Positions 46,226-63,898 of a stretch of 64,000 nt of DNA are shown piece after piece. The stretch comes from an uncultured bacterium. Its GTDB lineage: Bacteria > Zhuqueibacterota > QNDG01 > DSAB01. The notes under the pieces were generated by a model. It had not been told where the DNA came from, ran no database searches, and saw only the letters and a program-made list of their open reading frames with translations. The first letter of the stretch is position 1. Every line of letters begins with the position of its first letter. The position numbers and the translations under genes were made by a program. The stretch covers positions 10,130-74,129 of the forward strand of contig CAZTZL010000003.1 of the NCBI GenBank assembly GCA_964617625.1, in the 5' to 3' direction.

Positions 46226-46308
46226 AAGAATGATGCGAATCGGGATGAATTCTACAAACCAACCCCGAACAACTAAATTAAATTCATAAAATCCGATCCG
46301 ATTATTTC

Positions 46309-46337
46309 TTGACACAGGTTTGAAAAATAATTACATT
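46309..46337 (+). promoter_or_regulatory. possible sigma70-like promoter (TTGACA, 17 nt spacer, TACATT) upstream of the lipid kinase-plsC-glmU-like genes
   Basis: Hexamers read directly. The organism may instead use a Bacteroidetes-type -33/-7 promoter, so this is weak. Confidence 0.25.
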
Positions 46338-46377
46338 GAATCCGTCATAATCCCTACATCCGAGGATCAATCAATCA

Positions 46378-47972: not shown

Positions 47973-47996
47973 CCATTAAATCGAGTGAGGATCTGA

Positions 47997-49016
47997 ATGC
48001 CGCCATCATCCAAACCAGTAACCGCCGTTATTCTGGCAGCGGGCAAAGGCGTCCGCATGAAATCCCGGCTCCCCAAGGTTCTGCACAATCTGATGGGCAG
48101 ACCCATTGTCTCTTATGTGATCGAAGCGTGTCAAAAAGCCAAAGTAAACCGAATCATTTTAGTGGTGGGGCATCAGGCAGAGCTGGTGAAAAATACGCTC
48201 GGACCGGATTTTGAATACGTCGAACAGACCAGACAGCTCGGAACAGGCCACGCCTTGATGATGGCTGCAGAGAAACTGCCCGATTTAAAGGGGGACCTGC
48301 TTGTACTGGCCGGGGACACACCTTTTCTTACCGGACAGGTTTTGAAAAAACTGATTCAGCGCCATCAGAACACGCATGCTGCCGCAACACTAATGACAGC
48401 CGTCATGGACCCTCCTCCGGCTTACGGACGGATTGTCCGGGACGCTTCCGGCCACCTGATCCGCATCGTCGAGGAACGGGATGCAACTTCCGAGGAGAAA
48501 AAAATTACTGAGGTCAACACCTCCCATTACTGCTTTCAAGCTTCCAAAGTGCTTCCTCTGCTTTCAGGGCTCAATACACAAAACGATCAGGGAGAATATT
48601 ATCTAACCGACATTATCCAGATACTGGCGCAACAGGATGATAAAATAGAAACTGTCACTTCAAAAGATCCGAATGTTTTAATCGGCATCAACAGCCGTGC
48701 GCATTTGATCGAATGTCATCAATTGTACAGAAAACAAATCATCCGGAAATGGATTGAACAGGGAGTGTCTTTCGTCAATCCCGAAACGGTTTACATCGAA
48801 CCGGATGTCAAAATCGGCCAGGACACCACTATCCATCCTTCAACCACTCTCACAGGAAAAACAGTGATTGGAAAGGGATGTACCATCGGCCCGGAAGTCA
48901 AACTCACCGATGCCAAAATCGGCGAAAACTGCACCATCGAATTCTCCGTGATTGAAAACCGGACAATCGAAGCCAACGCCGTCATCGGCCCTTTTGCGTA
49001 CCTGACAGGGGAATAA
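47997..49016 (+). CDS. GlmU-like sugar-1-phosphate uridylyltransferase with short LbH tail; lacks the canonical GlmU acetyltransferase C-terminus
   Basis: 339 aa. VILAAGKGVRMKSRLPKVLH is the GlmU N-terminal nucleotidyltransferase motif. Hexapeptide repeats begin near residue 270. The protein ends at 339 aa, against about 450 for GlmU. Confidence 0.6.
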   Translation: MPPSSKPVTAVILAAGKGVRMKSRLPKVLHNLMGRPIVSYVIEACQKAKVNRIILVVGHQAELVKNTLGPDFEYVEQTRQLGTGHALMMAAEKLPDLKGDLLVLAGDTPFLTGQVLKKLIQRHQNTHAAATLMTAVMDPPPAYGRIVRDASGHLIRIVEERDATSEEKKITEVNTSHYCFQASKVLPLLSGLNTQNDQGEYYLTDIIQILAQQDDKIETVTSKDPNVLIGINSRAHLIECHQLYRKQIIRKWIEQGVSFVNPETVYIEPDVKIGQDTTIHPSTTLTGKTVIGKGCTIGPEVKLTDAKIGENCTIEFSVIENRTIEANAVIGPFAYLTGE

Positions 49017-49257
49017 ATACGTTCGATAAGAGATTCTTCAGTCGTCCCGAATTTCGCAAAGACCTTTTAATAATAAATGAGGCCGGGACTCCCTCAGAAT
49101 GACAGTTTTATTACTGCAATGGGGAAATATAGTATTTGCATTTTTAAATTGTTTTCTCGATAATAATATTCATCTATAATTATCCGAAAAATGAATATCC
49201 ATTCCATCCTGAGCGCAGTCGAAGGATGATAAAATAATAATCCAATAGGAAATCACA

Positions 49258-50175
49258 TTGATTGAAATCCGCGGAATGCGTTCCGGAGAACTCAAGTCTG
49301 TTCACCGGATACTCGGCAGGGCCTTCCCCGATACACCCGGATCATTCTTCGATCAGCAGGTCAAAAATGATCCTTATTTGCGGCCCGAAGACACACGGAT
49401 TCTTTTGGAAAACGGAAAAATCCGCGCCTGTGTCCGGGTCTATTTCCGGGATATTTACTGTCTGAGCGAAACCATAAAAATCGGCGGGATCGGCGACGTG
49501 GGGACTGATACAAACCATCAGCATCGGGGATATGCATCACAGTTGATGGGAAACGCAATTCAGTACATGAGGGACAACGGCGCTCTCCTCTCTATCCTCT
49601 TTACACGGATCAATCCGTTTTATCATTCGTTCGGATATATCGACCTGCCCACACTGCAGGTAGAAGCGGAAATCCCGCAACGCAGATCAGAAATCGAATA
49701 CCGGACAGCCGATCTCGGGAAAGATTTGAAACAGCTTCAAAAACTTTACACGGACTTCAACCAAAATAAAATCGGACCCATGGTCAGAGATTCACGTTAC
49801 TGGAAACAGCAAATGAAATTTCCAAGAATCGATACCGGTCTGTTCTGGATTATTGAGGAGGACAACGCACTTCAGTGCTACATCCGTGGAAAAATCGAAG
49901 CGGATTACATTAAAATTCAGGAGTGGGCGTATCAACTGGGTAAACAGGAGTACGTACTTAACCTGATTGGTGAAATGGCGCGCGCAACCCATAAAAAAAA
50001 GAGTTACTCCCGCTATCTTTCGGAACAGGAAATAACCCTTTTTAAACAATGGCCCTGTCACATCACAGAGAACAAAACATCAATGGTTCGTCTGATTCAA
50101 CTCGATAAAGGCTCTTCTTTCAGCAATATTCTAAGACCTCACCATTTTCTCTTCTGGGAATCCGACCGTTTCTAA
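49258..50175 (+). CDS. GNAT-family N-acetyltransferase (Eis-like, with C-terminal SCP2-like region)
   Basis: 305 aa (TTG start on track; ATG at 49276 also possible). The acetyl-CoA motif region HQHRGYASQLMGNAIQY. Confidence 0.55.
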   Translation: MIEIRGMRSGELKSVHRILGRAFPDTPGSFFDQQVKNDPYLRPEDTRILLENGKIRACVRVYFRDIYCLSETIKIGGIGDVGTDTNHQHRGYASQLMGNAIQYMRDNGALLSILFTRINPFYHSFGYIDLPTLQVEAEIPQRRSEIEYRTADLGKDLKQLQKLYTDFNQNKIGPMVRDSRYWKQQMKFPRIDTGLFWIIEEDNALQCYIRGKIEADYIKIQEWAYQLGKQEYVLNLIGEMARATHKKKSYSRYLSEQEITLFKQWPCHITENKTSMVRLIQLDKGSSFSNILRPHHFLFWESDRF

Positions 50176-50199: not shown

Positions 50200-50655
50200 T
50201 TATTTCTCGGCTTTGGAAATGATATCGAAAGCCGCTTTCGGTGAAGCGGCATCTTTCAAGCTGTCTCGAAATGCAGTATTCATGGTCAACCGTGCAATTT
50301 GCGCCAAAACCTGAACATTGGGTCCCGCTGCCGTCGAGGGTGCAACCAGCAAAAAGAAAAGATGTGAAGGCTGGCTGTCCGCAGATTGAAAATCCAGCCC
50401 CTCTTTCGATATCCCCAGCGCCATGACCATCCCGTCAGCGGCCATGGTCTTCGCATGGGGAATCGCAATCCCCTTCTCAAGACCTGTGCTCATGAGTTGC
50501 TCCCGATCCATAATCGATTTCAGCACGGCTTCACGATCCTTGATCTTTCCCGTTTTCATGGCAAGATCAAGCAGCTCTTCAATAATACCCTGCTTGTCTC
50601 TATGCATCAATGATGTTGTAATTGTTCCCTCACTCAATAGATCCGAGATGCGCAT
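50200..50655 (-). CDS. ptsN: PTS EIIA(Ntr)-type regulatory protein
   Basis: 151 aa. GIAIPHAK phosphorylatable-His motif of the EIIA fructose/nitrogen family. Confidence 0.7.
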   Translation of the reverse strand: MRISDLLSEGTITTSLMHRDKQGIIEELLDLAMKTGKIKDREAVLKSIMDREQLMSTGLEKGIAIPHAKTMAADGMVMALGISKEGLDFQSADSQPSHLFFLLVAPSTAAGPNVQVLAQIARLTMNTAFRDSLKDAASPKAAFDIISKAEK

Positions 50656-50687
50656 TTCGTAATCCTCCTTAACAAACCGATGACACT

Positions 50688-51191
50688 CTATTCCAATGCA
50701 TTATAGAGTCGTTCAATATAATCCGCATTTTTAACAATCAGAACTGAACATTTTGCTTTTCGGAATATCAATTCCGCTTCGTCGTGAAATGTGTCCGTCC
50801 TCGAAAGAACAGGATCCAGCTCACCCATCACCAAAAGATCTGCACCCATTTCTTGAATCTTATCTACGACGGATTTACTGACAACACCCTTGATAAGTTC
50901 GGTGCGGATCTCGACTCCTTTGGCTTTTCCCAATTCTGCGATATAGTTGAGATAACGCTTCCCGTCCTGCTCCAGATCCTGTTCGTAATCCATCTCCTCT
51001 ATCTTAACAAAAATACGTGCCTTAACCAGCTCATCAAGAAGATGGACATTGACCACATACAGCGCCGTGACATCCGCGCCTGTTTTTTTGGACAAGGCAA
51101 TACTGTACTGGGCTGCCGTAACACACCCTTCGGAACCATCTACAAAAATCAGTATTTTCTTTGCCGGCCCCTCTGGTAGCATAAATGTCAC
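50688..51191 (-). CDS. universal stress protein (UspA family)
   Basis: 167 aa. ILIFVDGSE...ATP-binding G-x2-G-x9-GS-like C-terminus (VMGELDPVLSRT). Confidence 0.65.
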   Translation of the reverse strand: MTFMLPEGPAKKILIFVDGSEGCVTAAQYSIALSKKTGADVTALYVVNVHLLDELVKARIFVKIEEMDYEQDLEQDGKRYLNYIAELGKAKGVEIRTELIKGVVSKSVVDKIQEMGADLLVMGELDPVLSRTDTFHDEAELIFRKAKCSVLIVKNADYIERLYNALE

Positions 51192-51817
51192 CCCTCTTTC
51201 TTCTCCAATCGCTCTTTGATTATTTTAAGAGTCGCGAACGTTCCCCGTTCGCTCTCCTCCAACGTTTCCTCGATATATTTGATGGACTCATGATAATCGG
51301 GCAGGGCAATTTTATCCAGCGCATTGACCCGCCGCATGGTCTTGCGCACTTCCTCGGCAAGTCGAACGAGTGAGATACGAAGTTCAGCCAGTTTGGCCAG
51401 ATCCTGAAGAATACTTCTGAATCGGGCAATCGTCTCGTCCACCCAGAAGCTCGTTTCGCCGAGACTGAAATAGGGAGTTACATCTTTAATTTCCACATTT
51501 ACTTTGGGAAGATTCACTCCCATCACCCGCCGCATGTCGATTGTGATATCGGAATCGATATTAACAGCCGGGGCAATATTGATCAGGGATTGCCGCCCCA
51601 TGGAAAGCACCGCTTTTTGAAGCGATTGAAAAGCCTCTGCCAATACTTTTTCCACATGTTCCTGGGCATCGGCAGTCTTGTCCATCAGGCCCATGAGTTC
51701 GACAACAAGTATCTGCCTCTTCTGCTCCAGCAGATCGTATCCTTCCTGTGCAAAAGAAAGGTCACGCCTCAATCGCATCAAATTTGTTTTTGTAGGTATA
51801 ACCTTGTAACGCGCCAT
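51188..51817 (-). CDS. atpD: V/A-type ATPase subunit D
   Basis: 209 aa. MARYKVIPTKTNLMRLRRDLSFAQEGYDLLEQKRQIL is the classic V-type D N-terminus. Confidence 0.85.
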   Translation of the reverse strand: MARYKVIPTKTNLMRLRRDLSFAQEGYDLLEQKRQILVVELMGLMDKTADAQEHVEKVLAEAFQSLQKAVLSMGRQSLINIAPAVNIDSDITIDMRRVMGVNLPKVNVEIKDVTPYFSLGETSFWVDETIARFRSILQDLAKLAELRISLVRLAEEVRKTMRRVNALDKIALPDYHESIKYIEETLEESERGTFATLKIIKERLEKKEG

Positions 51818-51880
51818 GCTCTTCTTTTATACTTTTTTCTATTTTTTCAGAAACATCCCGGCCTTTTCAATATAATCAAA

Positions 51881-52924
51881 TTACATGAGATGAATCAAGA
51901 CCGTCAGCACAAAAAAGCCCGGAATGAGGAATTTTAAAAACAACAGAAACCAGAACATCGTTCCGGTTTTTTTACGATCAAGGGATAATATCCCGTTAAT
52001 CTTCAACAGCTTTTCTATGAGGCCGCTTTTGCCTTCGTAAAAAATTGTATCCACATGCCTCGGCAGGGTCTCAGTGATAACCATTGCCTGCTTTTTCAGT
52101 TCATCTCCCTCCAGCCGCCTGAGGCATTCCAGTTTTCCTGAAATTCCTTCCATCAACAGGATCACATCCTGTTTCAGATTGATTTTTTTCGCTTCGTGAA
52201 TGAGCGATTTCATGCGGCATTTCAATCTTCTTAAAAATTTAAAATAGAACGATTTCCGGACAACCCAGATAAAAAGTACCACATCGATAATGAAAAGTAC
52301 AAGTACGAAATAACCCAGATACCTCGTATATCCCATCTGGTTCCACGTGCCGTGGATCAGAACTGAAACGATCAGCCCCGGAACGAGAAGCCACCATTTG
52401 TGCTTTCGTTTCGCAAACCCGAGAAAAACACCGCTTACCACATTGATAAAAATATGACCGGAGACCGCCCGGAGAACAACGATATCGTGCAGCGCTTTTT
52501 TATAGATGCCCATCTGACCCGTTTGGATTCCAAAGACAAAAGGGCGGAGCACAAACTGATATGAGTACCCGATATTTTCCAGAACGGTGAATCCCGCTGC
52601 GACAACCAGATAATAAACAATACCGTCGATCTCTTCATTGAATGATTTCAGGTGCCAGACAAAGATCAAAACGATGACGAGTTTCAACGCCTCTTCAAAT
52701 AAACCCGCAACAACATAGTTTTCGAAAAGAACCGAAAAATGCCAATCAAACCGGGCAAATAAAAACTGTTTGAGTTTGCCAAAAACGAACGTCAGAAGAA
52801 TCGCACAGATGTATACTTTAACCAGTGTCCACGGCGGTTCTTTCTCATTGATATCAAAAAAATAGACCAGAAGAACCAGACACGCGCTTGCAAGTATATT
52901 GGTGACAATAATGTCCCCGATCAA
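51881..52924 (-). CDS. PrsW-family-like intramembrane metalloprotease homologue with C-terminal soluble extension
   Basis: 347 aa. Multiple TM helices. Motifs EExxK (FEEALKL), FxxxE (FTVLENIG) and HxxxN (HGTWN) appear in the PrsW order. Confidence 0.45.
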   Translation of the reverse strand: MIGDIIVTNILASACLVLLVYFFDINEKEPPWTLVKVYICAILLTFVFGKLKQFLFARFDWHFSVLFENYVVAGLFEEALKLVIVLIFVWHLKSFNEEIDGIVYYLVVAAGFTVLENIGYSYQFVLRPFVFGIQTGQMGIYKKALHDIVVLRAVSGHIFINVVSGVFLGFAKRKHKWWLLVPGLIVSVLIHGTWNQMGYTRYLGYFVLVLFIIDVVLFIWVVRKSFYFKFLRRLKCRMKSLIHEAKKINLKQDVILLMEGISGKLECLRRLEGDELKKQAMVITETLPRHVDTIFYEGKSGLIEKLLKINGILSLDRKKTGTMFWFLLFLKFLIPGFFVLTVLIHLM

Positions 52925-52964
52925 CGGCAGCTCCCAATTTTAAATACATGTTTGATTAATAAAA

Positions 52965-55859
52965 TCATTTCAGAAGTATCATTTTCCCGGCGCTTACAAA
53001 TGAACCGGCCTGAATCCGACAGAAATAGACACCGCTTGCCGCCGGGCCATTCTGCGTAGCCCCGTTCCAGACAAGGGTATGACGCCCCGGTTCCTGCGTT
53101 CGATCGGAAAGCCGGGCAATCTCGCGGCCCCGAAGATCGTGTACTGTGAGAATCACGTAACTTGCCGCGGGGAGATCATATGAAATCACGGTTGAGCTGT
53201 TAAACGGATTGGGATAATTTCCCATCAACCGGAAAGTCAATGGCTGGCTGTCGCGATCCGGATCTGCTCCCGTGTTTTCAAAAATGGCCTGCCATTTGGT
53301 CTTCGCCAGAGCCGCATTCCGTTTCAAATCGCTCAAGCTCTCTCCACCCAACACTGCAAATCCGACCACAACAGATCCATCGACATCAATATCGAACGGA
53401 CCGATTCCCACGACATGGGAATAATCGCTCTGTACATCTCCCAGTGTATCCTGCACACCACCGGACAGATCCGCCCATTTTTCTGTATCGGAATACCCGT
53501 CGTAGATCTCGGTCGGATTGTCTATACACCGGTAGATCGCGGCTCCGTTTCCGCTCAACACTTGAACCCCGCAGGAAAGGGGAGGATCCTCTTTGAAAAT
53601 ATAACCCAAATTCAATGTATTGTCAAAATCCGCCATATTGGTTCCCGAATCCATATTGGGATTCAATCCCACATCCCAGTCCATAAAAAGAGCGAAATGA
53701 AGATTCCGTATCGTCTCGGAGGACAGATTATCCAGCCTGTAATGCAGAAGAACAAAATCTCCGTAAAGTGTATCGTAAAACGCCAGAGCGGTTTGCTCCA
53801 CTCCGAGATGTATTGGATTGACTGTATCGTCATCATTGAAAACTGTTTCCCCCTGTTCGTCGGCCAGCGGCCCTGGTTCGCGGATCATCAGTTCACCGTT
53901 TAATGAAGTGGTAAAATCTTTGTTCTGCACCTGTTCGTTTTCGCCTCTCGCCGCATCCGAAACATGAAGCGCATCGGTTGCGGCCATCACAGCGCCTTCG
54001 AAAAGCAGGTTCGCATATGGACCGAAAACAAATCCGTCGCCGTAGAAATTGTCGCTATAATCCGCATACGCCATGTTCCCGTTTGAAGTCAATGTCAACC
54101 GAACATCCGCCCCTTTCACCGTGCTGTACGAATAGGGTATTTCTATCTCAAAATAATCATAGTCCTGATATCCGCCGCTTCCCGTGATGGAGACAAAAAT
54201 CCCTGCTTTTTGCCCGCGCTCGGCTTCGGCATTAATCTGAATCCGAACAGGATTTCCGGTATTGCTCCATGATTCCATTTCCCCAAGATGGATACCGCTG
54301 AAATTCCCGGCAGTCAAAGTGGCGAGAGGACTGTCCGTCGAAAGTGCTAGCGTTATCTGGTCAACGGACATGAAATAATTTGTGACCGTCAATGTAATAC
54401 ATGCTTCTTCCCCCGGATCGATAATACTGTTGCCGTTGCCGTCGCTGCCTTCTTCCTGTAAAACATCGACGATTCGAACCGCTGGAGAAATATAAGTGAG
54501 CGCCCGGTACGCATTGATGCGTCCGTACCCAAGTTTGTGCTCGTATCCGAAATTGAGAGCATCGATCTGATCTGCCGAAATACGGACCTGCTGTGCCGCC
54601 TGCTGGGCCGTCCAGTTGGGATGATATCCCATGACAAGCGCAACCGCACTGGCCGTAAGCGGACTGGAAAAAGAAGTACCATCCCAGCTTGTGTAGTACA
54701 GATTGCCATAGGTGGAATAAATATCATCACCCGGAGCTGAGACGTCTACCCAGTTTCCATAATTCGACGACCCACTGGTGAAAATCGCGAGTCTGTCAGA
54801 GGGATTGGTCGCTGCGACGGAGAGTACGCCGGGATAATTGGCGGGATAAACCGGATCTTCAACTCCTTCATTTCCGGCGGCAGCAATTACCAGTGTACCA
54901 AGATTTTGTGCGTACCGAACGGCCTCTCGTTCGATATTGGAGGGCCCGCCGCTGAAACTGCAGTTAATAATATCGGCACCCATTTCTGCCGCATAGGTGA
55001 TCCCGAGATAGGTATATGACAAATATCTCGGATCTTCATTGTCTCCAGTCGCTTTCACCGTCAGTATCTTTGCATTGAATGCAGGAGCCGCAATGCCGAT
55101 TCCGTTATCAGTCACACCGCTCGCCACGCCGGCTACCATTGTTCCATGATATTTATAAGTACTCGAAGAAACAGGACTCGGATAGGGATCGTTGTCGTTA
55201 TCGGCCACATCCCAGCCGTGCCAGTCATCGATATAACCGTTGGCGTCATCGTCGATATGGTTGTCTGGAATTTCAGCTGGATTGATCCAGATATTTGCAG
55301 CCAGATCCGGATGGTCATAATAAAAACCATTATCCACAATTCCAATCAAGATTTCGGAACTCCCCTTAAAGATGTCCCATGCTTCCCGCGCCTGAATCTT
55401 GGCGAGATGCCACTGCAAATCAATATTCGGATCGTTCGGCACATAACAGATTCGCTTTAAATAAATCGGTTCCGCCCAAATTACAGAGGATTCATGGCTC
55501 AATCGTTCAACCGTTTTATAAATATCCACATTTGCGGGAAGTTTGATCCGGAATATTTTGGAGAGTTCAGTCCGGTCCTCTCTGTGTGCTGCAAATTCAT
55601 GATTGATGGAAAGAATCCCGATCTTCTGAAGAGTGTTTTCAAACGAAGCTTCGAATGTTTTATTCGGATAGGCTTTTTTCATTTTCACTACAATCACATC
55701 TGGAACAATGGGTACATCGCGAATTACCGGATAAAGCCGGTCCTTGATGGATATTGGTTCAACAATATTCTTCCTGTACGGGCGAGTAGTTCTTCCAGCA
55801 AGCATATTTTGACAAAACATCAAACCAATGAGAGGAAATAAAAATGACCTATTTGCCAT
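52965..55859 (-). CDS. S8 subtilisin-family serine peptidase with T9SS C-terminal sorting domain
   Basis: The Asp region ([13 protein letters not shown]), His motif ([11 protein letters not shown]) and Ser motif ([10 protein letters not shown]) are all present. The last roughly 80 aa (...[17 protein letters not shown]...[22 protein letters not shown]) are a Por_Secre_tail. The likely start is Met51 ([17 protein letters not shown] at 55859), which overlaps the last codons of V-ATPase B. Confidence 0.8.
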
Positions 55860-57246
55860 AAAATTTACCAATTTCCTCTTCCGTGATTCGGTGAAGTTCC
55901 TCTTTCGGCAGAAGGGAAATGACTTTCCATCCGATGTCGAGGGTTTCTTCGATGGATCTATCCTCATCCTCACGCTGTGAAAGGAATTGCTGCTCGAAAG
56001 CGTCTCCAAATTTAAGATAGGTATGATCCAGCGGGGTCAATTCCTCTTCTCCGATGACAGAAGCCAGCGCGCGCACGTCCTTGACTTTTGCATAAGCCGC
56101 AAAAAGCTGGCTCGCGATGTGGGCATGATCTTCCCGCGTCATACCGGGGCCGATGCCGTCTTTCATCAAACGTGAAAGAGAAGGCAGCCCGGCAATCGGC
56201 GGATAAATTCCTTTTTGAAAGAGTTCCCGTTCCAGAACGATCTGTCCCTCGGTAATATATCCGGTGAGATCGGGAATGGGATGGGAGATATCGTCATTCG
56301 GCATGGTAAGAATCGGCATCTGCGTGATGGAACCTGTGGAATTTTCCACCATCCCGGCCCGCTCGTACAGCGACGCAAGATCCGAATAAAGATATCCGGG
56401 ATAACTTTTCCGTGAAGGGATCTCGCCGCGCACTGTGGAAATTTCACGCAGCGCTTCACAGTAGTTGGTCATATCGGTGAGAATGACCAGCACGTGCATG
56501 TTTTCATGAAATGCGAGATATTCGGCCATGGTGAGAGCGGTTCTCGGCGTCATGAGCCGTTCGACTGATGGAGCATCGGCAAGCGACAGAAAAAGAACCA
56601 CGTTTTCAAGAACACCTGTCTCCTGAAAATTGGTAACAAAGTAGCGAGCTACATCGTTCTTCACGCCCATCGCGGCAAAAACAATAGCGAAGGAAACATT
56701 CTCTCCGACAATTTTCGCCTGCCTCGAAATCTGGGCGGTCACCTGATTGTGCGGCAGTCCTGCTCCGGAAAAAACAGGCAGCTTTTGACCGCGGACGAGT
56801 GTGTTCATGCCGTCGATGGCTGATATGCCTGTCTGTATAAATTTTGTCGGATAGGTTCGCGCCGTTGGATTGATGGGAACCCCGTTCACATCCCACCTCT
56901 CTTCGGTAATTGGAGCGGGCCCTCCGTCAATCGGGCGTCCCAATCCATTAAAGACCCTGCCGAGCATCTCCTGAGAAACGGGAAGCTTGAGAGGTTCTCC
57001 TTTGAACCGTACCATCGTATTGTCCAGAGAAAGCCCGGCTGTCCCCTCAAAAACCTGGACTACCGCATAACCTTCTCCGGTCTCCAGTACCATGCCGAGC
57101 CGTTCTTCACCGTTCGTTGTAATTTCAACGAGTTCGTTGTAACCCACATTGTGAATGTTTTTTATGAAAAAAAGTGGCCCGATAACTTTTTCAATCCCCT
57201 GATATTCTCTGGATTTGAGCAGGGTTTCTTTTTTAGAAATGCTCAT
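55849..57246 (-). CDS. atpB: V/A-type ATPase subunit B
   Basis: Conserved B-subunit blocks ([25 protein letters not shown]...). Start taken at the internal Met ([10 protein letters not shown]). Confidence 0.85.
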
Positions 57247-59005
57247 ATATTTCTCCCAACCGCTGCATTTCCCTTTCAAGCTGTTTCTGAAGTGCATCGA
57301 GTTTTTCGATTTCGTCATTGGCGATTTTATATTTCATTCGTGATATATCTTCGATAACACGCATCCGTCTCAACTTGATCAGCGTTGCGCCCTTTTTAAT
57401 GGCTTCCGAACCGAGACGGTAATAGGTGACAATGATCTTCAACATTCTAACCTGCTTTTCAACGGTTGAGTACATGTCGATTTGATCGAATGCGGACTGC
57501 TGAAGAAAGACATTTTTGAAGAGTGTGCATACTTCAAGAATCAAACGCTGGCTGTCGGGAAGCACATCCGCCCCCACCAGTTTGACCACCTGCTGCAGCC
57601 TCTCTTCCCGCTGGAGCAGATCCATCATTTCGCCCCTGAGCTCGACCCATTCCGGATCTCCGTGTTCCTTCCACCACTGCGAAACATCCGCAATGTATTC
57701 GGAATAGGAATCAAGCCAGGAAATTGCAGGATAGTGCCGGGCATTGGCCAGGTCCCTGTCCAAAGCCCAGAAAGCCCTGACAAACCGCTTGGTGTGCTGG
57801 GTCACGGGTTCCGAAAAATCACCGCCGGGCGGTGAAACCGCTCCGACAACGGTAATGGAACCTTTGGTGCCATCCAGGGTTTGAACCATGCCGGCCCGTT
57901 CATAAAATTCGGCCAACCGTGTGGGAAGATAGGCGGGAAAACCCTCTTCCGCCGGCATCTCTTCCATCCGTCCGGAAAGTTCCCGGAGCGCCTCGGCCCA
58001 CCGGGAGGAAGAATCCGCCATGATGGCCACATGGTATCCCTGATCACGATAGTATTCGGCCATCGTAATTCCTGTATAGATCGATGCCTCTCTCGCGGCT
58101 ACCGGCATATTGGAGGTGTTGGCAATCAGGATGGTCCGTTCCATGAGCGGCCGTCCGGTTTTGGGATCTTTGAGTTTCGGGAATTCCTGAAGTACATCGG
58201 TAATCTCGTTGCCGCGTTCTCCGCAGCCGATATAAACCACCACTTCGGCATCCGACCACTTGGCCAGTTGGTGTTCGACCAGCGTTTTCCCGGTTCCGAA
58301 TCCTCCCGGAATTGCAACCGCTCCTCCTTTGGCTACAGGAAAAAGGGTATCGATCACGCGTTGACCGGTAATCAGCGGTATGTTGGATAAAAGCCGTTCA
58401 TGAATCGGCCGCGGACGCCGGACCGGCCAGCGGTGGTAAAGTTGAAGCGGGCGCTTTTCAACACCATCATCAAGGACACAAACTTCCTGTTCAATGGTAT
58501 ATTCACCCTCCGGAAATATTTTGATCACTTTTCCTTTCATGTTCGGTGGAACGAGAATCCGGTGTCCTATCCGTTCATTTTCGGCGACAGTGCCAAAGGT
58601 TTGACCGGGCTGTAAAGCATCTCCTTCTTTCACTTCAGGGGTAAAAAGCCATTTTTTCTCCCGATCCAGAGGAGCAATTTTGACTCCTTTATGAATATAT
58701 TGATCCGAAACGGATTTGATTTTTTCAAGAGGGCGCTGCACTCCATCGTAGATGGACCCCATCATTCCGGGACCCAATTCGACAGAGAGCGGCATCCCTG
58801 ATCCGTAAACCGAAGCACCTGGCGCCAAACCCGTGGTATCTTCATAAACCTGAATTGTAATTTCATCCCCCTGGAGCCGGACAATTTCACCGATCAGACG
58901 TTCTTCGCCGACTTCGACCAGTTCGAGCATCTGTGCGCGGGTTACTCCTTTGGCCTGCACGACAGGCCCCAGCACACGGCTTACTCTGCCGATAACTTCA
59001 AACAA
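57233..59005 (-). CDS. atpA: V/A-type ATPase catalytic subunit A
   Basis: 590 aa. P-loop GGFGTGKT and the A-subunit non-homologous region. Confidence 0.9.
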
Positions 59006-59054: not shown

Positions 59055-59681
59055 TTATTCCGTTATTTTTTTTATCGCCAGCAAACGCATTTCATCCTGA
59101 TTCCGGCGAATGCGCGCGGAAAAACGATTGTCAAATCTCGCCCGGCCGTCCGCTGACGTCAGAATTATACCGCCTTCATCTATTTTCTCATCTGATAATG
59201 ATAAATTCACTTTTCTGCCATCTTTTTCAAGCTGTTTTTCAATCCTGTCGAGAGATTGCCTGGACAGCAATTTTCGTTCGATTTCTCCTGCAAGAATGTT
59301 CAAATTCTCAAATCCAAGCGCCAAAGCGCCCTCGATGATCATCGCTTCAAGAAAAGAACCGTAATCCGGAGACTTCCGGAATTGTTCCAGTTTCTCCTGA
59401 ACGATTTGGAATAATTTCAACAGCATTTCTTCTCTTGCCTGAAGGTCCTGCTTTTTGATTTCCAAATGTACACTGGAGAGTATGCGTTTCCGGATACCTT
59501 TGGCCTGAATCTCTGCCTTCTTAATCAGGCTGGATCGTATCTTTCGAGCTTCGGATTCGGCCTCCCCGATAATCCGCCCGGCTTCTTTTTCAGCCTGCTC
59601 CATAATGACGGCAGCTTCTGTTTCGGACTGTTCCCGAATCTCTTTCTGCAATATTTTCGAAGGTGCGCTCTCTTCTTTCAT
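59055..59681 (-). CDS. V/A-type ATPase subunit E
   Basis: 208 aa. Charged coiled-coil N-terminus (KILQKEIREQSETEAAVIMEQAEKEAGRII) and a globular C-terminus. Confidence 0.65.
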   Translation of the reverse strand: MKEESAPSKILQKEIREQSETEAAVIMEQAEKEAGRIIGEAESEARKIRSSLIKKAEIQAKGIRKRILSSVHLEIKKQDLQAREEMLLKLFQIVQEKLEQFRKSPDYGSFLEAMIIEGALALGFENLNILAGEIERKLLSRQSLDRIEKQLEKDGRKVNLSLSDEKIDEGGIILTSADGRARFDNRFSARIRRNQDEMRLLAIKKITE

Positions 59682-59690: not shown

Positions 59691-59996
59691 TTATAAATGA
59701 ACACCCACAGCCGCGCGTATCAATTCACGTATCGACTTCCTCCCCTCGATGGGCCCTTCACGATCCGGAATCTCGATAATCAATGGGAAAGTCGTTTTAT
59801 AAACGTATTGATTCACAAGATTTCGAATTGTTGTCGCAATCCGCTCAGTAATAATAATAATACCGAGCCCTTCTATCTGGAAGGCTTTCTTAAGCGCTTC
59901 CTGGGCTTCTTCAGGAGAATGGACCTCCTCACCCTCCAGGCCGACCAGTCGAAATCCGAGAACCGTATCCCTGTCGCCGATAACATAAAATTTCAT
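59691..59996 (-). CDS. V/A-type ATPase subunit F
   Basis: 101 aa. MKFYVIGDRDTVLGFRLVGLEG is the F-subunit signature. Confidence 0.7.
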   Translation of the reverse strand: MKFYVIGDRDTVLGFRLVGLEGEEVHSPEEAQEALKKAFQIEGLGIIIITERIATTIRNLVNQYVYKTTFPLIIEIPDREGPIEGRKSIRELIRAAVGVHL

Positions 59997-60088: not shown

Positions 60089-60493
60089 TTAAACTCTTCC
60101 CAGAATCATGATCGCAATAATCAATCCGTAGATGGCAATCCCTTCGGCCAATCCGACAAAGATCAATGCACGGCCGGCCAGTTCAGGTTTTTCGCCGATT
60201 GCGCCCATAGCCGCTGCTCCGACATAACCGACTGCAATTCCGGCTCCGAGCGCTCCCACACTTACGGCAATCGCTGCTGCGAGGAAAGCGAATTTCATGA
60301 CTCCGGGATCGGTTTGTGCCTTTTGTTGAACTGCTTGCGCCTGCATTGAAGCAGAAGGCGTTAATGTCCCGGCTTCTTGCTGCTGTGCGACCGCTTTGAA
60401 AACATTCACACATAACAGGGTGAAAACAATAAATCCCAGGAAAAATGTGAATCCGACAATCTTTTTTCTGAAAATCTTCTGTCCTGCTGTCAT
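60089..60493 (-). CDS. V/A-type ATPase proteolipid subunit K (c)
   Basis: GIAVGYVGAAAMGAIGEKPELAGRALIFVGLAEGIAIYGLIIAIMILG is a c-ring hairpin with the conserved carboxylate E. An N-terminal extension is present. Confidence 0.75.
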   Translation of the reverse strand: MTAGQKIFRKKIVGFTFFLGFIVFTLLCVNVFKAVAQQQEAGTLTPSASMQAQAVQQKAQTDPGVMKFAFLAAAIAVSVGALGAGIAVGYVGAAAMGAIGEKPELAGRALIFVGLAEGIAIYGLIIAIMILGRV

Positions 60494-60526: not shown

Positions 60527-60829
60527 TTATATTTCATAATCGACTACTTTCCGCTCTGAACGGATCTTGCTGACAAAATCAGCAACTACCCGATGTTCCG
60601 GATGATTCTGATATAATTCAAGATCTTTCCGATTCTTAAACTCTGAATAGAGAATCACATCATACGCATGATCGGACGAACTGAAATTAACACCCAGTTC
60701 AAGAGTTTTGATTTCCGGAATGAGTTCTTTAAGCCTTTCGAGTTTTTCTCTCAAAACAGACACGTTGTCTGCTCTGCTTTTTCCTTCTGCAAACGCTTTC
60801 AATTTCCACATCACAATATGTTTAACCAT
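60527..60829 (-). CDS. Dabb (stress-responsive dimeric alpha+beta barrel) family protein
   Basis: 100 aa. MVKHIVMWKLK...YDVILYSEFKNRKDLELYQNHPEHRVV is the Dabb/Stress_responsive A/B barrel pattern. Confidence 0.55.
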   Translation of the reverse strand: MVKHIVMWKLKAFAEGKSRADNVSVLREKLERLKELIPEIKTLELGVNFSSSDHAYDVILYSEFKNRKDLELYQNHPEHRVVADFVSKIRSERKVVDYEI

Positions 60830-60888: not shown

Positions 60889-62877
60889 TTATGTATTTTT
60901 AAGCTCGGCTCCAATCGGCTGGTACTTGGAATCGGTTTGCTCGAAAAACCGGCTGAAAAACTCATAGAATTCGAGACGAACCGCTTGAATCGTAACAACC
61001 AGTCCTTCAAGACCGATAATGAGCACATTACCGAAAAAAATAACCAATCCGGAAATGAGTCCGCCTGCCATCCCCTGAACGGCATCGGAAAGAGAAAAAA
61101 TCGCCATAAAAAGTCCGGCATGGGCGAGACCGAATGCAGCCACACGAATAAAGGAAACCGTATTCGCCAGAAAGCCGAGAAAAATTTCCAAAATTTCTAC
61201 TATTCCTCCCATGATGCCCGTAGTCACTCCTTCGGGGAAAAGCTTTTTCTTCCCTTCTGCCAAATGCAGAATGGGTTCCCTGAAAAAAAGGAGAAGAACA
61301 GCGCTTAACATCAGGATGATGACAAAAACCGGCACTTCTCCTTTGGCTTCGGCCTGAGTGGTGAGCATGCGTGTCACGACGACAATGCCGGACCAATAGA
61401 GAATGGCTGCAAGGAGACCTGCCTTGTCGAAAATCAATCCGAGAAAATTTCGTTTTCGAATACCATTAATGATATTGATCACCATGGCCAGCGTGATCAT
61501 TCCAATTCCGAAATAGATCGCCAGTTTAAAAAGCTCCGAGATGGAATCTATCGGTTTGATCCAGAGTGTCGGCAGGAGGTGCTCCACTCCGAAAATACTT
61601 CCAAAAAGAAATCCATATACAATGCTGGCGCAGCCGCCGTAAAAAAGCAGCACACCTGCATGTTTAAATAACTGTTTTTTACTTTTCAGCGCCATAATAA
61701 TTCCTGCAAGCGCCAGAACCAGTCCGTGCCCCACATCACCGAACATCATACCGAACATCAATAAAAAACTGATCCCCAGAAGAGGAGTCGGATCGATAGT
61801 GCGATAGGCAGGCATGCCGTATGTCGATGTCAACAACTCAAAGGGTTTCAGAAAAGAGGGATTCTTCAACTGTACTGGAACCTGCACTTTTCCGCTGCGA
61901 ACGGACATCACATCTTCAGCCCGGGTTTCTTCAACAACACAGCGGTTCTGGGTCACTTTTCTGATTTCCCGAATAAAAGGCTCCCTTTCCTCATAGGGAA
62001 GCCATCCGGACAGCAGGTAGGTTCTTTCGGTTTTGCGAAAGAACTGCATCATTTTTTGTTTGACGCTGTCCCGACGGATTCTAAAATGTGCAGTCCGCAA
62101 AAAGTGTCCGTTTTCACTGGCAATAGAGCGAATCCGGTTTTCGACAGACAGTTTCTGATGCTGCAGATCGTCTATTTTCGAATCCAGTTCCTTAAAGATT
62201 TCCGGTGATAGCTTCCGGTCTTTTTCCGTGAATTCGAGGGGTTGAAATCCTGCATCCTTTAGTGCGCTGTTCAGTTTCTCCTTGTCCCGCTTCAACACAA
62301 TCACCATGATCGTGCTCATTCCGCCGAACTGTGTTAAAGGATACAGAATATGAACCACAGAAGCAAGTTTTTGTTTAAGGATTTGAAGATTTTCGTCCGC
62401 TACACGGCCGGTTTCTACGGCAAGGTAGGAATAGTGTTCTCCTGTTCCGATGGGTATCCCAAGAGCAGGCAGGTCGCCCGCTTTGTCCCGAAGCTCCGTT
62501 AACCGATCGAGTTCTTTTTCAATTCCTTCCTGACGCGTGACCTCTTCACGAACAGTTCTCTCGATGTCCAGAATTTTAGGATCGATATCGTCCCACTTCT
62601 CCTGAGCCGGTTCGATATCGCGTGTATCGTCCGAAAGAGAAAGCGATTTAACAAGCGATTCGATCCGTTCCCGGCGTGTACGCATTTCACTGGGTTCATC
62701 CCCCGTGCCGACTTTGGAGAGATGTTCCGCCCAGCTGTCCATTTCGGCCGCATCCGTCATTTGAAGGATACCCTGACGGACTACGACATCGGCAACCGGA
62801 TCCAGATCCTTTTCGGAAAATAAAATCTGAATTTGTTCCATTTTTTCAGGTGTAAACATCATTCTCTCACATAACAA
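60889..62877 (-). CDS. V/A-type ATPase subunit I (a)
   Basis: 662 aa. Cytoplasmic coiled N-terminal half, multi-TM C-terminal half with the conserved LAHAGL...R region (VSFIRVAAFGLAHAGL). Confidence 0.85.
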   Translation of the reverse strand: MLCERMMFTPEKMEQIQILFSEKDLDPVADVVVRQGILQMTDAAEMDSWAEHLSKVGTGDEPSEMRTRRERIESLVKSLSLSDDTRDIEPAQEKWDDIDPKILDIERTVREEVTRQEGIEKELDRLTELRDKAGDLPALGIPIGTGEHYSYLAVETGRVADENLQILKQKLASVVHILYPLTQFGGMSTIMVIVLKRDKEKLNSALKDAGFQPLEFTEKDRKLSPEIFKELDSKIDDLQHQKLSVENRIRSIASENGHFLRTAHFRIRRDSVKQKMMQFFRKTERTYLLSGWLPYEEREPFIREIRKVTQNRCVVEETRAEDVMSVRSGKVQVPVQLKNPSFLKPFELLTSTYGMPAYRTIDPTPLLGISFLLMFGMMFGDVGHGLVLALAGIIMALKSKKQLFKHAGVLLFYGGCASIVYGFLFGSIFGVEHLLPTLWIKPIDSISELFKLAIYFGIGMITLAMVINIINGIRKRNFLGLIFDKAGLLAAILYWSGIVVVTRMLTTQAEAKGEVPVFVIILMLSAVLLLFFREPILHLAEGKKKLFPEGVTTGIMGGIVEILEIFLGFLANTVSFIRVAAFGLAHAGLFMAIFSLSDAVQGMAGGLISGLVIFFGNVLIIGLEGLVVTIQAVRLEFYEFFSRFFEQTDSKYQPIGAELKNT

Positions 62878-63898
62878 GCAAATTCTCTATGTCCTTGGGA
62901 GGCAGGCCATAGATCTTTGCCTGAATCAGTGTTCTTATATTTCTGGTCTCAATTCTGATCAAATAAAAATATCCGAATATCGCTCCGATGGAAAATGGAA
63001 ATTGAATAAACGCTTTTTCCGCTTCATCTAATAAAATCTGATATAACACTTTTTCCATGAATTCCAGAACAGCATTCTCATCGCTTTTTTCACCTGATGG
63101 AACTTCAAACCCTTTCATAACTGACGAAAATGCCTTTGTATAATTTCCGGTGGCAATCACTTCCCGGAGAACGTCCATCGACAAATGATAACCGGATGAG
63201 AGAAGCATATGACCAATATCCGCTGTCGGGATTTCATAATATTTTTTAAAACGGCTGAGCCAGTCGAGGTTCTTTAAATCAACCTCGATTCCCAGCAACC
63301 GCCTGGCCACACGGCGGTCGTCTTTACTCATACCTTTCATCACATCGTGGATAGCGTCGAACAAAAATTTATCAAGAGACAATTCAACAGGAAAAAGTGT
63401 ATGTTTCTCATTGTAAACAGAAATAGCCTCACTCAATGGTTTTTGAAAAGGTGTATCATTGAGAAGAAGGGCGATTTCCGACAGATTTTGAGCCGATAGA
63501 ATCTCTTTCACAGGAAAAGCGTACAGAATTTTCCAGTCAATAAACTCTGTCTCTTTTTGAGATTTCTTATGCCATAATCTCAGAAGAATTTTAAGTTTTT
63601 CGCAGTCGTACCTTTCTAAAAACCATTGAACTATCTGCTTCGGAGTACTCTGACTGTATTTTTCAATTTTCTTGAGCCGGACGATTTCTTCATAAAGCAG
63701 GATTTGTTCAATTTCGATGGGATCTTTTTGATCGGAATTTCTCAACGCATCCTGATAAACCGTTTTCGATAAAACAGAGGACATCTCGCGAAGATCGCGG
63801 GTTTCGATGAGAGAACGATACATACGGGAGGTCATGAGAAAAGAGCGCATGGCTCTGACCTTTGCATTTAAAAATCCGTATGTTCCGATCCGTGTCAT
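62867..63898 (-). CDS. V/A-type ATPase subunit C (d)
   Basis: 343 aa all-helical protein. MTRIGTYGFLNAKVRAMRSFLM is the typical NtpC/d N-terminus. Confidence 0.8.
   Translation of the reverse strand: MTRIGTYGFLNAKVRAMRSFLMTSRMYRSLIETRDLREMSSVLSKTVYQDALRNSDQKDPIEIEQILLYEEIVRLKKIEKYSQSTPKQIVQWFLERYDCEKLKILLRLWHKKSQKETEFIDWKILYAFPVKEILSAQNLSEIALLLNDTPFQKPLSEAISVYNEKHTLFPVELSLDKFLFDAIHDVMKGMSKDDRRVARRLLGIEVDLKNLDWLSRFKKYYEIPTADIGHMLLSSGYHLSMDVLREVIATGNYTKAFSSVMKGFEVPSGEKSDENAVLEFMEKVLYQILLDEAEKAFIQFPFSIGAIFGYFYLIRIETRNIRTLIQAKIYGLPPKDIENLLVM

What the first reader, a model, noticed from the sequence alone, without database searches (positions are those of the whole stretch)
51188..57246. V/A-type ATPase operon interrupted between subunits B and D by a T9SS-targeted subtilisin and a PrsW-like membrane protease
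V-ATPase subunits A, B and D are almost universally contiguous. Here the B gene's last codons overlap the start of a 965-aa S8 peptidase carrying a T9SS C-terminal domain. A 347-aa multi-TM protein with PrsW-type motifs (EExxK, FxxxE, HxxxN) follows. Only then comes subunit D, after which lie UspA and PtsN-like EIIA(Ntr).

The tight spacing (overlap at 55849-55859, gaps of 40-65 bp) argues for co-transcription of an ion pump with a secreted protease and a regulated-intramembrane-proteolysis-type protease. This could reflect co-regulation of energisation with T9SS cargo export, or a protease-based control of the ATPase.
Basis: partly seen in the sequence, partly recalled or inferred. Interest (0 to 1): 0.65.

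Follow-up and report, generated by a model that had tools for sequence, protein, structure and literature searches.

The report
Passenger genes inside a V-ATPase operon
In an uncultured sediment bacterial lineage, the gap between the B and D genes of a rotary V/A-type ATPase operon regularly holds extra genes, here a secreted subtilisin-like protease and a membrane-embedded PrsW-type protease, but comparison with relatives suggests they are co-expressed passengers and not parts of the pump.

Summary
On the minus strand the order is C-I-Dabb-K-F-E-A-B, then a 964-aa S8 pro-subtilase with a T9SS sorting domain, a 347-aa PrsW-family protease, D, Usp and an EIIA (PtsN-like) gene. The S8 start overlaps the B stop by 11 nt, and the next two gaps are 40 and 63 nt.

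It is not a one-off. I recovered 24 non-redundant relatives carrying this PrsW subfamily (44-100% identity). In 22 of them B and/or D lie on the same contig, and S8 sits directly upstream of PrsW in 13. Across the lineage the B|D gap holds up to four co-directional genes in a fixed order: receiver-domain protein, S8, PrsW, NAD-epimerase. An outgroup has B and D 12 nt apart.

Both proteases look functional. Catalytic residues are invariant, and dN/dS is 0.05 for PrsW and 0.17 for S8. No intergenic terminator was found.

Neither gene is tied to the pump. Two relatives kept S8 but lost PrsW, nine have PrsW without S8, and one lineage deleted every ATPase gene and Usp while keeping PrsW-epimerase-EIIA intact. 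The S8 family is widespread in FCB bacteria outside ATPase loci.

The best reading is lineage-conserved, probably co-transcribed passenger genes. A protease control of the ATPase is unsupported but not excluded. I found no published description. Interest is moderate.

The parts
62867..63898 (-). V/A-ATPase subunit C (d / AC39)
   Evidence: Pfam vATP-synt_AC39, E 1.5e-60. NCBIfam AhaC-like.
60889..62877 (-). V/A-ATPase subunit I (a)
   Evidence: Pfam V_ATPase_I, 104 bits. Syntenic in L006-L008, L010 and L012.
60527..60829 (-). Dabb (stress-responsive A/B barrel) gene between I and K, an extra passenger gene
   Evidence: Pfam Dabb, E 1.5e-25. Shared only with L010 and absent from the other relatives.
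60089..60493 (-). V/A-ATPase proteolipid K (c), 134 aa, with a signal-peptide-like N-terminal extension
   Evidence: Pfam ATP-synt_C, E 1.2e-15. The sequence and hydropathy show three hydrophobic segments.
59691..59996 (-). V/A-ATPase subunit F
   Evidence: Pfam ATP-synt_F, E 5e-27.
59055..59681 (-). V/A-ATPase subunit E
   Evidence: Pfam vATP-synt_E, E 5e-23.
57233..59005 (-). V/A-ATPase catalytic subunit A
   Evidence: Pfam ATP-synt_ab, ATP-synt_ab_Xtn and ATP-synt_VA_C.
55849..57246 (-). V/A-ATPase subunit B. The annotated start is M25 at 57246; the longest ORF starts at 57318 and overlaps A.
   Evidence: Pfam. A 465-aa form is called in public records.
52965..55859 (-). S8 pro-subtilase, 964 aa. 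It has a signal-like N-terminus, a prodomain at about 51-137, a catalytic domain at about 150-455 and two beta-rich domains at about 461-860. A T9SS type A C-terminal sorting domain covers about 882-961.
   Evidence: Pfam and NCBIfam hits. The catalytic residues D176, H238, N330 and S396 are invariant in 14 homologues. The AF2 model has pLDDT 84. Foldseek matches unprocessed pro-subtilisin E, pro-Tk-subtilisin and fervidolysin.
51881..52924 (-). PrsW-family (glutamic-type / M82) intramembrane protease, 347 aa, TTG start. The core covers 1-222, followed by a helical domain (about 225-320; cytoplasmic location inferred) and a C-terminal TM helix.
   Evidence: Pfam PF13367, 92.9 bits. Motifs are invariant. 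dN/dS is 0.05 against L002. The AF2 model is all-helical with pLDDT 82. A GGGAG lies 6 nt upstream of the TTG.
51188..51817 (-). V/A-ATPase central-stalk subunit D
   Evidence: Pfam ATP-synt_D, E 3e-54.
50688..51191 (-). Universal stress protein (Usp); its start overlaps the D stop by 4 nt
   Evidence: Pfam Usp, E 4e-17. It follows D in all relatives and in outgroup L103.
50200..50655 (-). PTS EIIA-2 domain protein (PtsN-like), the last gene of the co-directional block
   Evidence: Pfam PTS_EIIA_2, E 1e-32. The NCBIfam PtsN and FruA-IIA models score below their cutoffs.

Best explanation
The B|D junction of this V/A-type ATPase operon is a lineage-specific slot for co-directional passenger genes. 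The lineage is an uncultured FCB-type group; one relative is labelled candidate division KSB1, and the nearest outgroup ATPases are labelled Neomarinimicrobiota.

Across relatives the slot holds up to four conserved genes, always in the same order. They are a ~500-aa receiver-domain protein, a T9SS-exported pro-subtilase, a PrsW-family intramembrane protease with an extra helical domain and terminal TM helix, and an NAD-dependent epimerase. Toxin-antitoxin and other small insertions occur occasionally. The window carries the second and third of these.

Shown: both protease genes are intact, catalytically complete and under purifying selection. They are packed against the ATPase genes with no detectable terminator.

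Inferred: they are transcribed with the ATPase genes, so their expression follows that of the pump, Usp and the EIIA regulator.

Inferred roles: the S8 enzyme is made as a zymogen, exported through Sec and then T9SS, and acts outside the cell as a degradative protease. The PrsW-like enzyme cleaves an unknown membrane protein, either as signalling or as quality control.

Neither protein is a subunit or an obligate assembly factor of the ATPase.
For: Recurrence. Of 24 non-redundant PrsW-subfamily loci, 22 have B and/or D on the same contig. S8 lies directly upstream of PrsW in 13.

Fixed order RR-S8-PrsW-Epim across different presence/absence combinations:
- L104: B-RR-D
- L033: RR-PrsW-D
- L021: B-RR-S8-PrsW-Epim
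- L008: B-PrsW-Epim-D
- L005 and L098: B-S8-D

Outgroups L103 (B 78% identical) and Clostridium L009 have no gene between B and D: the gap is 12 nt in L103, and B and D are adjacent in L009.

Functionality. The PrsW motifs are invariant and so is the S8 catalytic tetrad. dN/dS is 0.028 for B, 0.039 for D, 0.051 for PrsW and 0.167 for S8.

Spacing. The overlap and short spacers are read. The spacers do not fold better than shuffles.

Independence from the pump.
- L025, L026, L106 and L107 (7 contigs, several samples) keep the flanking synteny and PrsW-epimerase-EIIA. They lack every ATPase gene and Usp.
- PrsW is lost in L005 and L098 while the ATPase genes are kept.
- The S8 family has 3456 hits, and homologues at 36-41% identity lie far from any ATPase.

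S8 export route. The T9SS CTD scores above its cutoff and the pro-subtilisin fold is matched.
Against: No transcript data exist, so co-transcription is inferred only from spacing and orientation.

Sigma-70-like hexamers (9 of 12 matches) lie just upstream of D. The PrsW-D spacer varies from 3 to 248 nt in relatives, so D-Usp-EIIA could have its own promoter.

PrsW has stayed in exactly this position over a divergence that takes PrsW itself down to 44% identity. That long retention is more than a neutral passenger would need and hints at a functional tie.

No substrate for the PrsW-like protease has been identified.

The metagenome loci were fetched with PrsW as the query, so the frequency of PrsW in the lineage is overestimated. 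In the D-based sample it is present in 5 of 7 loci, absent in one and unknown in one.
Confidence: 0.55

Rival explanations
1. The PrsW-like protein is a dedicated accessory factor of this V/A-ATPase. It would be an intramembrane protease that matures, assembles or turns over a membrane-sector subunit, such as the K proteolipid precursor with its N-terminal extension or subunit I. It might also switch the pump off under stress. That would explain why it is kept inside the operon.
For: The position between B and D is retained in 22 of 24 subfamily loci down to 44% identity.

Constraint on PrsW (dN/dS 0.05) is as strong as on the ATPase subunits.

Only this tight subfamily is linked to the ATPase. 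PrsW relatives at or below 35% identity, and P0309, are not.

The subfamily has its own C-terminal helical domain and TM helix.

The K subunit has a signal-like N-terminal segment.
Against: The L106 and L025 lineage deleted all ATPase genes but kept an intact, motif-complete PrsW.

L005 and L098 keep the ATPase without PrsW at the locus. L104 has a receiver-domain protein there instead.

The N-terminus of K looks like an ordinary signal-peptidase I substrate (AVA|Q). Signal peptides on V-type c subunits are known elsewhere (own knowledge: Thermus subunit L).

The same core + helical domain + terminal TM architecture occurs in a 26%-identical relative with no ATPase genes on its 6-kb contig.
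Confidence: 0.17
2. The placement has no functional meaning. The B|D junction is simply a tolerated recombination or insertion hotspot, and the inserted genes have their own promoters and independent regulation.
For: Many unrelated things land in this gap. Examples are HicBA with a duplicated and decayed 5' fragment of D (L017), a 23S-IVP four-helix-bundle gene (L034), the epimerase and the receiver-domain protein.

The occupants are gained or lost freely.

Promoter-like hexamers lie upstream of D.

B-S8 spacers reach about 200 nt (about 80-200 nt in L010, L030 and L003) and the PrsW-D spacer reaches 248 nt (L010).
Against: All occupants are co-directional with the operon and keep a fixed relative order.

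Spacers are mostly under 100 nt, with an 11-nt overlap in the window and L002.

No terminator-like structure lies in the spacers.

The number of promoter-like hits in the region (26) is not above the shuffle expectation of 20.6 +/- 4.
Confidence: 0.23
3. S8 and PrsW form a functional pair, for example PrsW sensing or processing the exported subtilase or its propeptide.
For: They are immediate neighbours with 13-140 nt spacers in 13 non-redundant loci.
Against: Each occurs without the other: 9 loci have PrsW only and 2 have S8 only.

S8 homologues elsewhere lack an adjacent PrsW.

T9SS cargo ends up outside the outer membrane, away from an inner-membrane protease (established knowledge of T9SS).

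The subtilisin-type prodomain implies autoprocessing.
Confidence: 0.05

Closest known systems
Bacillus subtilis PrsW (YpdC), the site-1 protease of anti-sigma factor RsiW (MEROPS M82; Pfam PF13367; NCBIfam NF033739)
   Same: It has the same Pfam family and the same catalytic motifs (EExxK, FxxxE and two HxxxN). It is also a multi-pass helical membrane protein. The role of PrsW as a stress-triggered site-1 protease is summarised in PMC9263693.
   Different: It scores 62 bits against an equivalog cutoff of 225, so it is not an orthologue. It has an extra ~120-aa C-terminal helical domain and a terminal TM helix. No sigma or anti-sigma gene is nearby. It is embedded in an ATPase operon.
Enterococcus hirae ntp operon (ntpFIKECGABDHJ), a V-type ATPase operon that also carries non-subunit genes (own knowledge, not tested here)
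   Same: Accessory, non-subunit genes are transcribed with V-ATPase structural genes. In E. hirae these are ntpH and the K+ transporter gene ntpJ. The theme of ion homeostasis and stress is shared, here through Usp and EIIA/PtsN.
   Different: In E. hirae the extra genes follow D. Here they split B from D, and they are proteases, a regulator and an epimerase, not a transporter.
T9SS type A CTD cargo subtilases of the FCB group (about 950 aa; for example the Ignavibacterium homologues P0110 and P0141) and pro-subtilisins or fervidolysin (PDB 3whi, 2e1p, 1r6v)
   Same: Homology runs over the full length at 36-49% identity. The catalytic tetrad is invariant. The fold covers prodomain and catalytic domain. 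The T9SS CTD scores above its cutoff.
   Different: Only the genomic position differs. Elsewhere these genes sit beside TonB receptors, PorV or unrelated genes.
Operon-encoded accessory membrane proteins of rotary ATPases (F-type AtpI/UncI; N-ATPase AtpQ/AtpR) and protease-processed eukaryotic V-ATPase accessory subunits (Ac45/ATP6AP1 and ATP6AP2, cut by furin or S1P). Own knowledge; an analogy only.
   Same: A non-subunit membrane protein is encoded within a rotary-ATPase operon. There is also a loose parallel of S8-family proteases acting on V-ATPase accessory proteins in eukaryotes.
   Different: There is no homology. No accessory-subunit substrate is encoded here. The S8 enzyme here is exported by T9SS. 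PrsW survives loss of the ATPase.

Membership tests
PrsW family intramembrane protease (Pfam PF13367 / MEROPS M82) | Domain match above Pfam's gathering threshold | tested here: met
   92.9 bits against a cutoff of 23.5, covering residues 29-220.
PrsW family intramembrane protease (Pfam PF13367 / MEROPS M82) | Conserved catalytic motifs: EExxK/R, FxxxE and two HxxxN/D | tested here: met
   E77, E78, K81, F112, E116, H157, H191 and N195 are invariant. N161 is conserved in at least 90% of 28 homologues down to 46% identity.
PrsW family intramembrane protease (Pfam PF13367 / MEROPS M82) | Multi-pass helical fold of the CPBP / Rce1 / APH-1 superfamily | tested here: inconclusive
B. subtilis-type PrsW (RsiW site-1 protease, NCBIfam NF033739 equivalog) | Score above the equivalog cutoff | tested here: not met
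   62.2 bits against a cutoff of 225.
B. subtilis-type PrsW (RsiW site-1 protease, NCBIfam NF033739 equivalog) | A cognate ECF sigma / anti-sigma pair as substrate | tested here: not met
   None of the genes scanned in the operon, or in the ~5 kb scanned below it (45122-50175), is a sigma or anti-sigma factor. The rest of the genome could not be examined.
PrsW family intramembrane protease (Pfam PF13367 / MEROPS M82) | Proteolytic activity on a membrane substrate | not testable with these tools
   This needs biochemistry.
Subtilase S8 with T9SS type A sorting domain | S8 catalytic domain with the Asp-His-Ser triad and oxyanion Asn | tested here: met
   Pfam Peptidase_S8, E 7e-45. D176, H238, N330 and S396 are invariant in 14 homologues.
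Subtilase S8 with T9SS type A sorting domain | N-terminal subtilisin-type prodomain (intramolecular chaperone and inhibitor) | tested here: met
   The AF2 model shows a beta-alpha-beta-beta-alpha-beta unit at 51-137, followed by a low-confidence linker at 140-147. Foldseek aligns prodomain and catalytic domain to unprocessed pro-subtilisin E 3whi (TM 0.85), pro-Tk-subtilisin and fervidolysin. Pfam Fervidolysin_NPro-like is only sub-threshold, E 0.026.
Subtilase S8 with T9SS type A sorting domain | C-terminal T9SS type A sorting domain (TIGR04183) | tested here: met
   28.9 bits against a cutoff of 23, residues 882-961. Pfam Por_Secre_tail is below its threshold (18.9 against 27).
Subtilase S8 with T9SS type A sorting domain | Sec signal peptide and a T9SS machinery in the same genome | tested here: inconclusive
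   A hydrophobic N-terminus ([22 protein letters not shown]) is present only if the ATG at 55859 is used. No signal-peptide predictor was available. No T9SS component and no other CTD protein lies in the window.
Bacterial V/A-type ATPase operon | Full set of subunit genes (C/d, I/a, K/c, F, E, A, B, D, G/H) | tested here: met
   All except G are found above Pfam thresholds. G probably lies just beyond the window end. A 104-108-aa ORF precedes C in L012, L103 and L104 and gives weak V-ATPase_G hits.
Bacterial V/A-type ATPase operon | Canonical contiguity of A, B and D | tested here: not met
   B and D are 4031 nt apart in the window. There is no intervening gene in outgroups L103 (gap 12 nt) and Clostridium L009.

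The most novel reading that the evidence does not exclude
This narrow PrsW subfamily is a genuine, lineage-specific partner of a prokaryotic rotary ATPase. It would be an intramembrane protease that controls assembly, turnover or stress-dependent shut-down of the Vo sector. It might act together with the operon's Usp, EIIA(PtsN-like) and receiver-domain proteins. That would be the first protease-based control of a bacterial V/A-ATPase. The ATPase-less lineage would then reflect a second, retained substrate.
Probability: 0.13. Interest if true: 0.75.

Novelty: new variant of a known kind. Interest (0 to 1): 0.4.

Why it matters
Rotary ATPase operons are among the most conserved gene arrays known, so a lineage in which the A-B-D core is stably split by up to four accessory genes is an unusual operon architecture.

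It defines a small, easily recognised PrsW subfamily: about 347 aa, with an extra helical domain and a terminal TM helix. Only about 20 of 1.84 billion cluster representatives score at E<1e-30. Its expression is probably tied to an ion pump, Usp and an EIIA regulator. This gives a concrete context in which to look for substrates of the poorly understood PrsW/CPBP proteases.

The natural variants are ready-made comparative controls. They include loci with PrsW only, with S8 only, with a receiver protein only, and one where the ATPase is deleted but PrsW is kept.

The subtilase is an ordinary secreted enzyme. Its presence here warns against reading function from adjacency alone.

Tried and rejected
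1. K-subunit maturation by PrsW. K has an N-terminal hydrophobic extension, but it looks like a standard signal peptide with an AVA|Q site, so it is not specific evidence.

2. Terminators between the genes. The scan gave 22 terminator-like sites against 15.3 +/- 3.9 expected, and none lies in the spacers. The spacers fold no better than shuffles. A hairpin inside the PrsW coding region (51969-51947, z -2.1) is conserved only in the closest relative, so I treat it as chance.

3. Polarising S8 gain against loss. A D-only NJ tree put S8 in one derived clade. A D+Usp+EIIA tree moved the S8-only locus L098 to a basal position. This is unresolved, and I do not claim that S8 arrived later.

5. The C-terminal domain of PrsW. 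It has no Pfam match apart from a noise-level AmiR_N hit, E 0.028.

6. Literature. Searches for PrsW + V-type ATPase, KSB1 + V-type ATPase, and V-type ATPase + operon + universal stress protein + PtsN (any 3 of the 4 terms) returned nothing relevant.

7. Other T9SS cargo in the window. None was found by tblastn with the CTD.

8. Taxonomy. Source names are only 'bacterium', with one 'candidate division KSB1'. Outgroup B subunits are labelled 'Candidatus Neomarinimicrobiota'. The window holds no rRNA and only tRNA-Phe.

Full report
**1. What is in the window**

The minus strand from 63898 to 50200 carries a co-directional block:
- subunit C/d (62867-63898)
- subunit I/a (60889-62877)
- a Dabb-domain gene (60527-60829)
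- proteolipid K/c (60089-60493)
- F (59691-59996)
- E (59055-59681)
- A (57233-59005)
- B (55849-57246, or 57318 for the longest ORF)
- a 964-aa S8 peptidase (52965-55859)
- a 347-aa PrsW-family protein (51881-52924)
- D (51188-51817)
- Usp (50688-51191)
- a PTS EIIA-2 / PtsN-like protein (50200-50655)

All identities are above Pfam thresholds. The T9SS type A sorting domain of the S8 protein passes NCBIfam's cutoff, 28.9 against 23 bits.

The S8 ATG at 55859 overlaps the B stop by 11 nt (ATGGCAAATAG). The S8-PrsW gap is 40 nt, with a GGGAG 6 nt before the TTG start. The PrsW-D gap is 63 nt, and D and Usp overlap by 4 nt.

JGI's gene caller starts S8 44 nt after B. That start removes the hydrophobic N-terminus, and the overlapping ATG is conserved in the closest relative. 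I therefore keep the overlapping start.

**2. Are the two proteases real and functional?**

*PrsW-like protein.* E77, E78, K81, F112, E116, H157, H191 and N195 are invariant in 28 homologues down to 46% identity, and N161 is nearly so. An N-terminal DxNEKEP motif is also conserved. dN/dS against L002 is 0.051, compared with 0.028 for B and 0.039 for D.

The AF2 model (pLDDT 82) is all-helical. It shows the protease core, a further helical domain at about 225-320, and a terminal TM helix.

It is a PrsW-family member by domain and motifs. It is not an orthologue of B. subtilis PrsW, scoring 62 bits against a cutoff of 225.

*S8 protein.* D176, H238, N330 and S396 are invariant, and dN/dS is 0.167.

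The AF2 model (pLDDT 84) shows five parts. These are a subtilisin-type prodomain (51-137), the catalytic domain, two beta-rich domains and the CTD. Foldseek aligns prodomain and catalytic domain to unprocessed pro-subtilisin E, pro-Tk-subtilisin and fervidolysin.

**3. Synteny in relatives**

I gathered loci in five ways:
- a genome scan with D
- a metagenome scan with a PrsW profile
- look-ups of PrsW homologues
- look-ups of S8 homologues
- look-ups of B homologues

This gave 31 non-redundant loci.

The PrsW subfamily (44-100% identity, almost always 347 aa) occurs in 24 of them.
- In 22, B and/or D lie on the same contig.
- One contig is too short to tell.
- One lineage lacks ATPase genes entirely.

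PrsW relatives at or below 35% identity, and the next-best representative P0309, are never next to an ATPase. Only 21 of 1.84 billion cluster representatives match the subfamily profile at E<1e-30.

S8 lies directly upstream of PrsW in 13 loci. Nine loci have PrsW without S8. Two (L005, L098) have B-S8-D without PrsW.

Two further genes recur in the same gap. One is a ~500-aa receiver-domain protein directly after B (L104, L021, L033, L039; 41% identical between L104 and L021). The other is an NAD-dependent epimerase directly after PrsW (L004, L008 group, L019, L022, L023, L025; 44-58% identical).

Whatever the combination, the order is always RR - S8 - PrsW - epimerase - D. Occasional extras are:
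- HicBA, with a duplicated and decayed 5' fragment of D in L017
- a 23S-IVP four-helix-bundle gene in L034

The outgroup L103 (B 78% identical) has C-I-K-F-E-A-B-D-Usp-EIIA, with B and D 12 nt apart. In Clostridium L009, B and D are also adjacent, with no gene between them.

So the ATPase-Usp-EIIA operon is older, and the split of B from D is a trait of this lineage.

**4. What the variants say about function**

The most informative variant is L025, L026, L106 and L107, seen in 7 contigs from several samples. The flanks match those of the ATPase locus in relatives: an aminotransferase upstream, and NTP-transferase, lipid kinase, HD and OmpA genes downstream. Every ATPase gene and Usp are gone. 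PrsW, the epimerase and EIIA remain intact and tightly spaced.

Two other observations point the same way. PrsW is lost at the locus in L005 and L098. The S8 family is large (3456 hits at E<=1e-20), and members at 36-41% identity sit in unrelated neighbourhoods in Ignavibacterium and another FCB genome.

Together these argue that neither protease is a subunit or an obligate assembly factor of the pump.

**5. Co-transcription**

*For:*
- All genes are co-directional.
- Spacing is short or overlapping.
- The spacers hold no terminator-like structure.
- The spacers fold no better than shuffles (z +0.6 and +0.06).

*Against or unknown:*
- Sigma-70-like hexamers lie upstream of D at 51898-51841. 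The total number of such hits in the region is not above expectation.
- Spacers vary in relatives, up to about 250 nt.
- The promoter type of this lineage is unknown.

Co-transcription is therefore inferred, not shown.

**6. Best explanation and rivals**

The best explanation (confidence 0.55) is a lineage-specific passenger-gene slot at the B|D junction. Its occupants are co-expressed with the ATPase, Usp and EIIA but work independently of the pump.
- The S8 enzyme would be a Sec- and T9SS-exported zymogen that acts as an extracellular degradative protease. This fits the polysaccharide-degrading, TonB-receptor-rich content of the rest of the window.
- The PrsW-like enzyme would be a membrane protease for signalling or quality control, with an unknown substrate.

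Rivals:
- A dedicated ATPase accessory protease (0.17). It is favoured by the long positional retention and the subfamily-specific C-terminal domain. It is disfavoured by the ATPase-less and PrsW-less variants.
- A neutral insertion hotspot with independent promoters (0.23).
- An S8-PrsW functional pair (0.05).

**7. Comparison with known systems**

- B. subtilis PrsW: same family and motifs. It is not orthologous, has no anti-sigma partner nearby, and lacks the extra C-terminal domain (PMC9263693).
- E. hirae ntp operon: a precedent for non-subunit genes in a V-ATPase operon, but there they follow D (own knowledge).
- FCB T9SS subtilases and pro-subtilisins: the S8 protein is an ordinary member.
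- AtpI-type accessory proteins and furin- or S1P-processed eukaryotic V-ATPase accessory subunits: analogies only (own knowledge).

**8. Novelty and verdict**

No paper linking PrsW to V-type ATPases was found. Public MAG annotations already name the genes.

The arrangement is real and conserved, and no published description of it turned up. It is a new variant of a known kind of operon, built from known families.

For PrsW they are only a minority possibility. Interest is 0.40. The most novel surviving reading is PrsW as a true regulator of a bacterial V/A-ATPase, with a probability of about 0.13.

Noticed in passing
window 60527-60829 (-): A 100-aa Dabb (stress-responsive A/B barrel) gene is inserted between ATPase subunits I and K. 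This is a second interruption of the operon. Only L010 (GCA_016932575.1) shares it, and the other relatives have I directly followed by K.
   Followed up: partly
window 50200-51191 (-); L103, L104, L106: Usp (4-nt overlap with D) and a PtsN-like EIIA close the operon in every relative and in the outgroup L103, where B and D are contiguous. In the ATPase-less lineage Usp has been lost together with the ATPase genes while EIIA is kept. This suggests Usp, unlike EIIA, is tied to the pump.
   Followed up: partly
L025, L026, L106, L107 (PrsW at L106 10001-11044): This lineage has the same flanking synteny but has cleanly lost all V-ATPase genes and Usp. It retains PrsW-epimerase-EIIA with 9-13 nt spacers. 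It was seen in 7 contigs from several samples.
   Followed up: yes
window 57233-57318 (-): The longest ORF for B starts 86 nt inside the 3' end of A. The same -83 or -77 nt overlap of the long ORFs appears in all relatives. Public gene calls start B at M25 (57246), which still overlaps A by 14 nt.
   Followed up: partly
window 60089-60493 (-): The K/c proteolipid is 134 aa. It has a signal-peptide-like N-terminus (KIFRKK, a hydrophobic run, then AVA|QQQ), a Q/A-rich linker of about 35 aa, and then the usual two-helix hairpin. The ion-binding Glu lies in a GLAEGIAIYG context.
   Followed up: partly
L017 2850-3565: A HicB-HicA toxin-antitoxin pair is inserted at the 5' end of D. A duplicated D fragment lies upstream; its first ~34 codons match D and it then diverges and stops. 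A 17-bp inverted repeat follows the PrsW stop. Together these are a footprint of recombination at this junction.
   Followed up: partly
L104 10423-11931; L021 3382-5088; L033; L039: A ~500-aa protein with a C-terminal receiver domain and an unassigned N-terminal half recurs directly after B in the same slot. In L104 it is the only occupant (B-RR-D).
   Followed up: partly
window 1-43300 (-): This is a large glycoside-hydrolase cluster with a TonB-dependent receptor at 39399-42152. It holds two GH3 genes and one each of GH31, GH97, GH29 fucosidase, alpha-galactosidase and arabinofuranosidase. Two big ORFs have no Pfam match: 35768-39334 (1188 aa, next to the receptor) and 19299-21560 (753 aa).
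   Followed up: no
window 51947-51969 (-): A 10-bp hairpin followed by a T-rich run lies inside the 3' coding part of the PrsW gene (z -2.1 against shuffles). It is conserved only in L002 and not in L003 or L006, so it is probably chance.
   Followed up: yes
L038 109-1191: A 360-aa PrsW relative (26% identity) has the same architecture of core, helical domain and terminal TM helix. Its contig has no ATPase genes; it carries a VWA-like ORF and, about 2 kb away, a BlaR1/BlaI-like pair on the opposite strand. The extended architecture is therefore not unique to the ATPase-linked subfamily.
   Followed up: partly
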